Shown: positions 13,468-13,917 of the stretch, piece after piece | Layout of the letters: each line of letters starts with the position of its first letter | How positions within the stretch are numbered: position 1 is the stretch's first letter | Sequence record: NC_106721.1 | Direction: 5' to 3' (one strand) | DNA length: 64,000 nucleotides | DNA from: Escherichia phage EC148 | The notes under the pieces: generated by a model | The model's input: the letters and a program-made list of their open reading frames with translations, nothing else | The model's database searches: none | Told to the model about the DNA's origin: nothing | Position numbers and translations under genes: made by a program

Positions 13468-13917
13468 TTAATTTATTAACTGTAAGCTTCTTTTAATTTC
13501 AGACCTTACTTGCATCAAAAGGACTCCTAAAGTATTATCCCCGATGCCTCGGCAAACACCCCAATATGTATCTCCCCAGGTATTTCCTTCGATCAAAGTT
13601 GCATTTTCTGTTGCTAACAGTTTATCTCTTAAATCAGGAATTGCAAACTTTAATCGTAAAAGCTCTAGCATTACATCATCTTTTACTTTATCCCAGTCAG
13701 AGCGTAGGGTTAATTTACGTCCTCTACGTTTAGCAACTCCTGCATTTAGGGAGCGGAGTACATGAGCTACATCATCTTTTTGGTCGGATTTCATAGCCTG
13801 AAAAGCATGTTCTACAGTATCAGCATGCCATATCTCATTTAGATATTCGAAAGTAATTGGTGATAAATAAAAGTTAGATAAGAAACTATAAGTACCTTTA
13901 AATTCAGTAATCTTCAT
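13468..13917 (-). CDS. NADAR-family (YbiA-like, DUF1768) protein
   Basis: FLSNFY ... EHAFQAMK ... LLAT...LIEG...DTYWG pattern matches the YbiA/NADAR family as recalled. Confidence 0.7.
   Translation of the reverse strand: MKITEFKGTYSFLSNFYLSPITFEYLNEIWHADTVEHAFQAMKSDQKDDVAHVLRSLNAGVAKRRGRKLTLRSDWDKVKDDVMLELLRLKFAIPDLRDKLLATENATLIEGNTWGDTYWGVCRGIGDNTLGVLLMQVRSEIKRSLQLIN

What the first reader, a model, noticed from the sequence alone, without database searches (positions are those of the whole stretch)
13468..13917. NADAR (YbiA-like) protein: candidate anti-ADP-ribosylation function
The sequence shows the YbiA/NADAR pattern (FLSNFY, EHAFQAMK, LLAT..LIEG..DTYWG). NADAR proteins have been reported to remove ADP-ribose from modified DNA bases, so a phage copy is a plausible counter-defence against DarT-type toxins; alternatively it could act in riboflavin-intermediate salvage.
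Basis: partly seen in the sequence, partly recalled or inferred. Interest (0 to 1): 0.55.

Follow-up and report, generated by a model that had tools for sequence, protein, structure and literature searches.

The report
Known phage anti-DarT1 NADAR enzyme (AdfN)

Summary
The ORF at 13468..13917 (minus strand, 149 aa) is real, and all the quoted motifs are present. It is a clear NADAR protein: Pfam PF08719 scores 78.8 bits against a cut-off of 35.1. The AlphaFold2 model has pLDDT 97.8 and matches E. coli YbiA (TM 0.82) and the Phytophthora NADAR bound to ADP-ribose (TM 0.75). The catalytic residues E36, K43, E110, D116 and W119 are invariant among its homologues.

The window is a Tequintavirus (T5-like phage). 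The protein is 148/149 identical (T9 versus A9) to bas32_0066 of phage IrisVonRoten (Bas32), at the same genomic position. That protein is AdfN(Bas32) of Johannesman et al., Nat Commun 2025 (PMC11825919). Expressed from a plasmid, it neutralises the guanine-specific DNA ADP-ribosyltransferase DarT1. It also restores plaquing of T5, RB69 and Bas25 on DarTG1 hosts, but not of T5 on DarTG2.

T5 itself lacks the gene; 93 of 232 relatives with the same flanking genes carry it. The riboflavin alternative is not supported: TIGR02464 scores below its cut-off and there are no rib genes nearby.

Verdict: observation confirmed, interpretation supported for DarT1 only, already known, low interest. Still open are a deletion in the native phage and the enzyme's substrate range.

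The parts
13468..13917 (-). adfN-type NADAR gene (149 codons plus TAA stop). It is predicted to be a DNA guanine-ADP-ribose glycohydrolase, with proposed catalytic residues E36, K43 and E110 and the ribose/phosphate-contact residues W75, D116 and W119.
   Evidence: ORF. Pfam NADAR 78.8 bits. AF2 pLDDT 97.8 and Foldseek matches to YbiA and 8BAU. E36, K43, E110, D116 and W119 are invariant in 43 homologues. The protein is 148/149 identical to Bas32 bas32_0066.
13914..13917 (-). ATGA overlap: the TGA stop of the upstream gene overlaps the ATG start of the NADAR gene. This suggests translational coupling and a shared transcript.
   Evidence: Sequence read directly.
13914..14198 (-). Upstream gene, probably co-transcribed (94 aa, homologue of T5.090, phrog_4593, function unknown). 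T5 has it without the NADAR gene, so it is not an obligate partner.
   Evidence: No Pfam hit.
14226..14254 (-). Probable promoter of the T5.090-homologue/NADAR unit: TTGCTT (14254..14249), a 17-nt spacer, TATAAT (14231..14226), with an A-rich stretch upstream. It lies in the stretch that aligns with the promoter annotated at T5 46337..46411.
   Evidence: Sequence. T5 annotation. The 92% identical block 13960-14755 matches T5 46097-46891. The generic promoter scan missed it because the -35 hexamer matches only 3 of 6. This is an inference, not shown.
13431..13459 (-). Promoter-like site (TTGCTA, 17 nt, TATAAT) just after the NADAR stop codon. It aligns with T5 promoter P-H207, serves the next gene (DUF7022, 12877..13392) and marks the 3' edge of the inserted gene.
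   Evidence: 10 of 12 match. The alignment shows the sequence is identical to T5 from here on. T5 annotation.
13470..13959 (.). Stretch with no DNA match to phage T5. It consists of the NADAR ORF plus the diverged last ~45 bp of the upstream gene, and it stands in place of T5 46051..46096.
   Evidence: blastn blocks and MAFFT junction alignment. Records without the gene cover exactly 63% of the query 12877-14198.

Best explanation
The gene encodes an orphan-antitoxin-type counter-defence enzyme, an allele of AdfN(Bas32). The proposed sequence of events is as follows. When a host carrying DarTG1 is infected, the DarT1 toxin ADP-ribosylates guanine bases in phage DNA and blocks replication. The phage makes this 149-aa NADAR glycohydrolase from its block of nucleotide-metabolism and replication genes, probably as the second cistron of a two-gene transcript. 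The enzyme cleaves the guanine-ADP-ribose bond, using E36, K43 and E110 in a minimal YbiA-like fold. Replication can then proceed. What is shown here: family membership, fold, an intact active site, near-identity and shared synteny with the tested protein, and accessory-gene status. What is shown in the literature for the 148/149-identical protein: neutralisation of DarT1 toxicity, rescue of three phages on DarTG1, and no effect on DarTG2. What is inferred: early expression, the catalytic roles of the individual residues, and that the gene is necessary in its own phage.
For: The protein belongs to the NADAR family by profile, by solved-structure sequence hits and by predicted fold. The catalytic Glu and Lys (E36, K43), the last-strand Glu (E110), and D116 and W119 are invariant across 43 homologues of 48-60% identity. 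In Schuller et al. 2023 (PMC11543638), the corresponding residues contact ADP-ribose in PnNADAR or abolish activity when mutated in the E. coli C7 NADAR. The protein is 99.3% identical (only T9A, at a non-conserved position) to bas32_0066 of IrisVonRoten (Bas32) and to the HildyBeyeler protein. The gene order is the same: nrdB, frd, thy, rnh, a 94-aa ORF, NADAR, DUF7022. Between the window and Bas32 the ORF has 11 nucleotide differences, 10 of them synonymous, which points to purifying selection. PMC11825919 section 11 reports three results for AdfN(Bas32): it neutralises DarT1 in uninfected E. coli, it restores RB69, T5 and Bas25 to full titre on DarTG1, and it does not help T5 on DarTG2. T5, which that paper reports as DarTG1-sensitive, lacks the gene at this exact junction. 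Of 232 related records with both flanking genes, 93 carry it, a presence/absence pattern typical of anti-defence accessory genes. The closest relatives outside T5-like phages also sit in phage-like contigs.
Against: Nothing was tested on this exact allele (T9) or in its own phage. The published data on AdfN(Bas32) that I could read are all from ectopic expression. I found no deletion in Bas32 or Bas33, and no purified-enzyme assay described in the text for this orthologue; the in vitro assay described is for AdfN(T4). E. coli YbiA is its best structural match and shares the Glu-type active site. YbiA removes guanine-ADP-ribose in vitro but does not protect against DarT1 in vivo (PMC11125620), so fold and catalytic residues alone would not have predicted the phenotype. 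The protein lacks the N-terminal extension that has been proposed to bind ssDNA in DarT1-linked NADARs (TM only 0.52 to 8BAT).
Confidence: 0.88

Rival explanations
1. The enzyme is a broader eraser of nucleic-acid ADP-ribosylation. Besides DarT1-modified guanine in DNA, it would remove ADP-ribose from cytidine and/or from RNA. It would then counter other ADP-ribosyltransferase defences or toxins, with DarT1 as only one of its targets.
For: The last-strand catalytic residue is Glu (E110), as in YbiA-type and general NADARs, rather than Asp (DarG1 type) or His (T4 type). In PMC12945103, the YbiA-type and general NADARs removed cytidine-ADP-ribose from DNA and RNA, whereas the DarG1 and T4 NADARs did not. 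Johannesman et al. themselves raise the possibility of activity against undiscovered ADP-ribosylating defences.
Against: No data exist for this orthologue on any substrate other than DarT1 products in vivo. It does not reverse DarT2 thymidine modification. No cytidine-ADP-ribosylating defence is known in enterobacteria; this last point rests on my own knowledge and was not checked.
Confidence: 0.2
2. It is a housekeeping-type N-glycosidase acting on reactive riboflavin-pathway intermediates (COG3236/YbiA function). It would be carried by the phage for metabolic reasons and not for counter-defence.
For: The best structural and sequence match in the PDB is E. coli YbiA. There is a partial match to TIGR02464 'riboflavin biosynthesis intermediates N-glycosidase' (66.6 bits). 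Some database records name this gene or its relatives 'GTP cyclohydrolase II' or 'ribA/ribD-fused'.
Against: The TIGR02464 score is below its curated cut-off of 73.7. There is no fusion to RibA or RibD, and no rib genes are nearby; the neighbours are RNase H, ThyA, DHFR, ribonucleotide reductase and small ORFs of unknown function. In the published tree, AdfN(Bas32) falls outside the YbiA-like housekeeping group, and it has a direct anti-DarT1 phenotype. The gene is dispensable: T5 and about 60% of relatives lack it.
Confidence: 0.04
3. It is a member of a NADAR-containing anti-phage or superinfection-exclusion system (DS-32 or PDC-M42 type) carried by the phage.
For: There are weak hits to NCBIfam NF053876 'NADAR family anti-phage protein' (44.8 bits) and to PADLOC PDC-M42C (28 bits).
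Against: The NF053876 score is far below its cut-off of 240. Both hits are just the shared NADAR domain. No partner genes of such systems are adjacent. The host genome is a virulent T5-like phage.
Confidence: 0.01

Closest known systems
AdfN(Bas32): bas32_0066 / QXV80247.1 of Escherichia phage IrisVonRoten, identical in Bas33 HildyBeyeler (Johannesman et al., Nat Commun 2025, PMC11825919)
   Same: 148 of 149 residues are identical. The genomic position and neighbours are the same, and the phage genus (Tequintavirus) is the same.
   Different: There is one substitution, T9 in the window versus A9, at a position that is not conserved in the family. The flanking DNA is only about 93% identical, and the window's thyA is a different allele.
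E. coli YbiA (PDB 2B3W), the YbiA family of NADARs
   Same: It is the best structural match (TM 0.82, 36% identity over the structural alignment). Both have the minimal fold without an extension, and both have a Glu in the last strand (E110).
   Different: YbiA is a chromosomal housekeeping protein linked to riboflavin-intermediate hydrolysis, and it does not protect against DarT1 in vivo. The phage protein scores below the TIGR02464 cut-off, and its near-identical orthologue does protect.
DarG1 antitoxins (BC4488-type NADARs; G. lovleyi 8BAT, E. coli C7 NADAR)
   Same: Same superfamily and the same biological target: they reverse DarT1 guanine ADP-ribosylation.
   Different: The phage gene is an orphan with no adjacent darT1. 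It is about 50 residues shorter at the N-terminus (E36/K43 versus E88/K95 in the C7 protein). It has L108 where the DarG1-type catalytic Asp would sit, two residues before the conserved Glu. Its structural similarity to 8BAT is low (TM 0.52).
AdfN(T4) / gp30.3, the T4-type phage NADARs
   Same: Same superfamily and the same anti-DarTG1 role in a virulent coliphage.
   Different: There is no BLASTP similarity (E 1.3) and only a remote profile match (hhalign probability 87.6%). The T4 type is described as having His in place of the last-strand Glu. AdfN(T4) works only during infection by T-even phages, whereas AdfN(Bas32) works on its own. The two look like independent acquisitions.
Phytophthora nicotianae NADAR bound to ADP-ribose (PDB 8BAU)
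   Same: Same fold (TM 0.75), and the ADP-ribose-contacting Glu, Lys, Glu, Asp and Trp residues are conserved.
   Different: It is a eukaryotic protein with fold extensions and is 189 aa long, against 149 aa here.

Membership tests
NADAR superfamily (Pfam PF08719) | Profile score above Pfam's gathering cut-off over the full domain | tested here: met
   78.8 bits against 35.1, covering residues 9-142 and model positions 9-163 of 163.
NADAR superfamily (Pfam PF08719) | YbiA-like alpha-helical core fold | tested here: met
   AF2 pLDDT 97.8. Foldseek gives 2B3W TM 0.82 and 8BAU TM 0.75, with no other significant PDB hit.
NADAR superfamily (Pfam PF08719) | Conserved catalytic Glu and Lys (E43/K50 in PnNADAR, E88/K95 in the E. 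coli C7 NADAR, E36/K43 in AdfN-T4) | tested here: met
   E36 and K43, in the motif VEHAFQAMK, are invariant in 43 homologues. Their roles are taken from PMC11543638 and PMC11825919.
AdfN (anti-DarT factor NADAR), Bas32 type | Orthology with the experimentally tested protein | tested here: met
   148/149 identical to bas32_0066, at the same locus between the T5.090 and T5.089 homologues.
AdfN (anti-DarT factor NADAR), Bas32 type | Neutralises DarT1 and restores phage growth on DarTG1 hosts | not testable with these tools
   Reported for the A9 allele under ectopic expression (PMC11825919). Not tested for the T9 allele or by deletion in the native phage.
YbiA / riboflavin-intermediate N-glycosidase (NCBIfam TIGR02464 equivalog domain) | Score at or above the curated equivalog cut-off | tested here: not met
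   66.6 bits against a cut-off of 73.7.
YbiA / riboflavin-intermediate N-glycosidase (NCBIfam TIGR02464 equivalog domain) | Glutamate in the last strand (the YbiA-class signature of de Souza and Aravind, as cited in PMC11125620 and PMC11543638) | tested here: met
   E110 in LIEG aligns with the Glu of YbiA (LVEH) and of PnNADAR (LYEA) and is invariant.
YbiA / riboflavin-intermediate N-glycosidase (NCBIfam TIGR02464 equivalog domain) | Fusion or genomic link to riboflavin biosynthesis genes | tested here: not met
   It is a stand-alone 149-aa protein. Its neighbours are RNase H, ThyA, DHFR, NrdAB, DUF7022 and an exonuclease.
DarG1 / BC4488-type NADAR antitoxin | Encoded next to a DarT1 toxin gene | tested here: not met
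   No ART gene adjoins it. The flanking ORFs are phrog_4593 and DUF7022.
DarG1 / BC4488-type NADAR antitoxin | N-terminal extension of the YbiA fold, and a catalytic Asp in place of the last-strand Glu | tested here: not met
   The catalytic Glu is at position 36, against 88 in the E. coli C7 NADAR. The residue two positions before E110 is L108. TM to 8BAT is 0.52. The position mapping is by inference from the paper's numbering.
T4-type phage NADAR (gp30.3) | Sequence relatedness to gp30.3, and His in place of the last-strand Glu | tested here: not met
   BLASTP E 1.3. hhalign probability 87.6%, over the N-terminal two thirds only. The window protein has E110.
DS-32 NADAR anti-phage protein (NCBIfam NF053876) | Score at or above the curated cut-off | tested here: not met
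   44.8 bits against a cut-off of 240.

The most novel reading that the evidence does not exclude
This Glu-type, extension-less 149-aa NADAR is about the smallest member of the superfamily known to act as a free-standing DarT1 antidote in vivo. E. coli YbiA has nearly the same fold and cannot do so. The most novel reading not excluded is that a few surface residues, and not the N-terminal extension proposed for DarG1, decide whether the enzyme reaches modified DNA in vivo. A second part of that reading is that, like YbiA-type NADARs, this enzyme also erases cytidine- or RNA-linked ADP-ribose, which would give T5-like phages protection against ADP-ribosylating defences other than DarTG1.
Probability: 0.2. 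Interest if true: 0.45.

Novelty: already known. Interest (0 to 1): 0.15.

Why it matters
The finding adds no new biology. It identifies the window's gene as an allele of a published anti-defence factor. That is useful for annotation, because GenBank records call this gene 'swarming motility protein', 'GTP cyclohydrolase II', 'N-glycosidase', 'DUF1768' or 'hypothetical'. It also helps predict host range: T5-like phages that carry it, about 40% of those with this locus architecture, should plaque on DarTG1 hosts that restrict T5. Two questions remain open. What lets this minimal NADAR protect in vivo when YbiA cannot? And does it act on other ADP-ribosylated nucleic acids?

Tried and rejected
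1. Riboflavin N-glycosidase reading. Rejected because TIGR02464 scores below its cut-off and there is no rib gene context.

2. Defence-system NADAR (NF053876, PADLOC PDC-M42C). The hits reflect only the shared domain and are far below cut-off.

3. Orthology with T4 gp30.3/AdfN(T4). Rejected: BLASTP E 1.3 and only a remote profile match.

4. A functional partnership with the overlapping upstream 94-aa gene. Unlikely, because T5 keeps that gene without the NADAR gene.

5. The plus-strand ORFs inside the gene (13544..13765 and 13566..13733). I treated these as antisense artefacts. The minus-strand frame carries the full Pfam domain, and 10 of the 11 nucleotide differences from Bas32 are synonymous in that frame.

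6. The supplementary accession table of PMC11825919. It is not held, so the identification of AdfN(Bas32) with bas32_0066 rests on two things. It was the best NADAR hit in that genome found by tblastn, with one place per record. The paper also states that Bas32 and Bas33 encode identical NADAR proteins.

7. A literature search for later work on a native deletion in T5-like phages. None was found.

8. The generic sigma-70 scan did not flag the promoter upstream of the 94-aa gene. That promoter was assigned instead from the alignment with the T5 annotation and by reading the sequence.

Full report
**Observation.** The window has an ATG-to-TAA ORF of 149 codons at exactly 13468..13917 on the minus strand. 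The match to the NADAR family is far beyond chance.
- Pfam PF08719 scores 78.8 bits (E 7e-22) against a gathering score of 35.1 and covers almost the whole model.
- PHROGs places the protein in phrog_1017, of unknown function, with E 1e-44.
- Among solved structures, the only meaningful sequence hits are E. coli YbiA (2B3W, E 3e-15) and the Phytophthora nicotianae NADAR crystallised with ADP-ribose (8BAU, E 7e-7).
- An AlphaFold2 model built on 43 homologues is very confident: mean pLDDT 97.8, pTM 0.91.
- Foldseek against the PDB finds only NADAR structures as significant: YbiA with TM 0.82 and 8BAU with TM 0.75. The DarT1-linked Geobacter NADAR 8BAT is much further away (TM 0.52).

**Active site.** In an alignment of 43 homologues that are 48-60% identical to the window protein, E36, K43, E110, D116 and W119 are invariant, and W75 and R72 are nearly so. 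Schuller et al. 2023 (PMC11543638) report the relevant roles. In PnNADAR, E43 and E125 hold the distal ribose, and K50, W89, D130 and W133 contact ADP-ribose. In the E. coli C7 NADAR, E88, K95 and D171 are the residues catalysing guanine de-ADP-ribosylation, and mutating D171 abolishes efficient activity. Johannesman et al. mutated the equivalent E36 and K43 in AdfN(T4), which weakened rescue. The pairwise alignments place the window's E36, K43 and E110 on these positions. The last-strand residue is Glu, as in the 'YbiA family' signature. It is not Asp, as in the DarT1-associated BC4488 family, nor His, as in T4-type phage NADARs. The protein is the bare core fold. Its catalytic Glu is at position 36, against 88 in the E. 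coli C7 DarG1-type protein, so the N-terminal extension proposed to bind ssDNA is absent.

**What the window is.** The 4.7 kb around the gene is 99.6-99.7% identical to Escherichia phages SUT_E1520, SUT_E420, SUT_E520 and T5_ev212. It also matches 447 phage records, mostly T5-like phages of Escherichia and Salmonella hosts. The annotated relatives I inspected (T5_ev212, IrisVonRoten, T5) are Demerecviridae, Markadamsvirinae, Tequintavirus. On the minus strand the gene order is nrdA, nrdB, frd (DHFR), thyA, two small ORFs, rnh (RNase H), a 94-aa ORF, NADAR, a DUF7022 protein, small ORFs, and an Rv2179c-like exonuclease. This is the block of nucleotide-metabolism and replication genes. From general knowledge of T5 it is an early-expressed region, but I did not verify the timing.

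**Identity with a characterised protein.** A tblastn search of 50,697 phage records gives 94 records with a protein at least 95% identical. These include Escherichia phages IrisVonRoten and HildyBeyeler at 99.3%. The IrisVonRoten gene carries locus tag bas32_0066 (QXV80247.1) and sits in the same place: RNase H, an 285-bp ORF, then this gene overlapping it by 4 bp, then the 516-bp DUF7022 gene. The only amino-acid difference is T9 in the window versus A9, at a non-conserved position. At the DNA level the two ORFs differ at 11 sites, 10 of them synonymous.

Johannesman et al. [quoted passage not shown] They report three results for this protein:
- It neutralises the DarT1 toxin in E. coli without phage infection.
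- Its ectopic expression restores RB69, T5 and Bas25 to full titre on DarTG1 hosts.
- It does not change T5 plaquing on DarTG2 hosts, which indicates specificity for guanine over thymine ADP-ribosylation.

The window's gene is therefore an allele of a published anti-defence factor.

**Accessory status.** Phage T5 (NC_005859) has T5.091 (rnh), T5.090, promoter P-H207 and T5.089, with no NADAR gene. In blastn, window 12852-13469 matches T5 45433-46050 and window 13960-14755 matches T5 46097-46891. So 490 bp of the window replace 46 bp of T5. The junction alignment shows that the sequence becomes identical to T5 immediately after the NADAR stop codon. The upstream gene keeps a related but diverged C-terminal tail. 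With the query 12877-14198, 232 records match. Of these, 93 cover at least 80% of the query and so carry the gene. The listed records that lack the gene, T5 among them, cover 61-63% of the query. That T5 lacks the gene agrees with the paper's use of T5 as a DarTG1-sensitive phage. The gene's G+C content is 35.6%, somewhat below the window's 39.2% and below its immediate flanking genes at 42-45%.

**Expression signals.** These are read from the sequence and remain inferences. The NADAR ATG overlaps the TGA of the 94-aa upstream gene (ATGA at 13914-13917), which suggests coupled translation. Upstream of that gene lies TTGCTT, 17 nt, TATAAT (14254..14226), preceded by an A-rich tract. This stretch aligns with a promoter annotated in T5. 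Directly after the NADAR stop there is another promoter-like site (13459..13431), which aligns with T5 P-H207 and serves the next gene.

**Relation to other NADARs.**
- The protein shows no BLASTP similarity to T4 gp30.3/AdfN(T4) (E 1.3) and only a remote profile match (hhalign probability 87.6%). This fits the published view of independent acquisitions.
- It fails the curated cut-off of the riboflavin N-glycosidase equivalog TIGR02464 (66.6 against 73.7) and of the DS-32 anti-phage NADAR model (44.8 against 240).
- The PADLOC hit is weak, at 28 bits.
- Its nearest relatives outside Tequintavirus (50-61% identity) are widespread: over a thousand proteins at E<=1e-5.
- The three contigs I inspected look like phage. 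Two related contigs (the largest 168 kb) carry Thg1, dCMP deaminase and PurA, and the 168-kb one also an NAD-dependent ligase. A 58-kb contig carries a 7-deazaguanine gene set, a holin and a GH108 lysin.

**Mechanism and confidence.** The best explanation (confidence 0.88) is that the protein is a DNA guanine-ADP-ribose glycohydrolase. It would remove the modification that DarT1 places on phage DNA and so act as an orphan antitoxin made by the phage. The steps shown here are family, fold, an intact active site, orthology with the tested protein, and accessory distribution. The steps shown in the literature are the anti-DarT1 and anti-DarTG1 phenotypes and the lack of an anti-DarTG2 effect for the A9 allele.

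The remaining steps are inferred. They are activity of the T9 allele, early bicistronic expression, necessity in the native phage, and the chemistry assigned to individual residues. I found no native deletion of the T5-like gene, and no purified-enzyme assay described for this orthologue.

One caveat matters. YbiA, the closest structure, removes guanine-ADP-ribose in vitro but does not rescue cells from DarT1 (PMC11125620). The phenotype therefore could not have been deduced from fold alone. It rests on the near-identity to the tested protein.

**Rivals.**
- A broader eraser role, on cytidine-ADP-ribose or RNA-ADP-ribose, is compatible with the Glu-type active site. YbiA-type and general NADARs act on these substrates, while DarG1 and T4 NADARs do not (PMC12945103). 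This is untested here (confidence 0.2, and not exclusive of the main explanation).
- The riboflavin housekeeping role (0.04) and a defence-system role (0.01) fail their membership tests.

**Verdict.** The feature is already known as AdfN(Bas32), so interest is low (0.15).

Noticed in passing
window 15313..16167 (-): The window's thymidylate synthase (284 aa) is only 31% identical to T5 ThyA (279 aa) and has no DNA-level match to it, although the flanking frd and rnh genes are T5-like. Bas32 carries the 840-bp T5-type thy gene. This looks like replacement by a distant homologue at a conserved position.
   Followed up: partly
window 12597..12812 (-), 14752..15033 (-), 15030..15233 (-): Three small ORFs of unknown function (phrog_2380, phrog_5321, phrog_17630) are present here but absent from the corresponding intergenic positions of T5. 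The first is annotated 'tail length tape-measure protein' in T5_ev212, which looks like a misannotation for a 71-aa protein.
   Followed up: partly
window 13429..13477 and 14224..14267: The promoter regions on either side of the two-gene unit (94-aa ORF plus NADAR) resemble each other. Each gives a cross-match of about 80% over ~45-50 bp to the other's T5 counterpart. Repeated promoter sequences like these could act as recombination points for gain and loss of small gene cassettes.
   Followed up: no
window 24486..26817 (+): A Sir2-family protein (278 aa) lies in this stretch, followed after a gap by a HAD_SAK_2 domain protein and two DUF7415 proteins (the T5.102-T5.107 region). This is another NAD-linked enzyme in the same phage, with no known function here.
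   Followed up: no
window 102..7921 (-): A cluster of 12 tRNA genes (Met, Pro, Asp, Asn, Cys, Phe, Trp, Glu, Tyr, Leu, Ser, Arg), all on the minus strand, as expected for a T5-like phage.
   Followed up: no
L007 6001..6826: In a 58-kb phage-like metagenomic contig, a 61%-identical NADAR gene overlaps a downstream YAcAr-domain gene. It lies about 2 kb from a QueC/PTPS/GTP-cyclohydrolase I/radical-SAM set, which suggests 7-deazaguanine DNA modification. A NADAR in a phage whose guanines may be modified would be worth a look.
   Followed up: no
L005 and L006 (NADAR at 6001..6444 and 5099..5542): A 55%-identical NADAR sits in a large phage-like contig (168 kb) among genes for Thg1, a KTI12/AAA kinase-like protein, dCMP deaminase, adenylosuccinate synthase, YqeY and NAD-dependent ligase. 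This is a context of RNA repair and nucleotide metabolism.
   Followed up: no
public records matching window 13468..13917: Across GenBank phage records the same gene is variously named 'swarming motility protein (YbiA)', 'GTP cyclohydrolase II', 'N-glycosidase', 'DUF1768 domain-containing protein', 'NADAR domain-containing protein' or 'hypothetical protein'. None of the records listed calls it an anti-DarT factor.
   Followed up: yes
window 14276..14764 (-): The mechanical ORF for RNase H starts at a TTG at 14764. The annotated T5-type gene is 477 bp, which would put the start at the ATG at 14752 and make it abut the upstream ORF 14752..15033. The start codon is therefore ambiguous.
   Followed up: no
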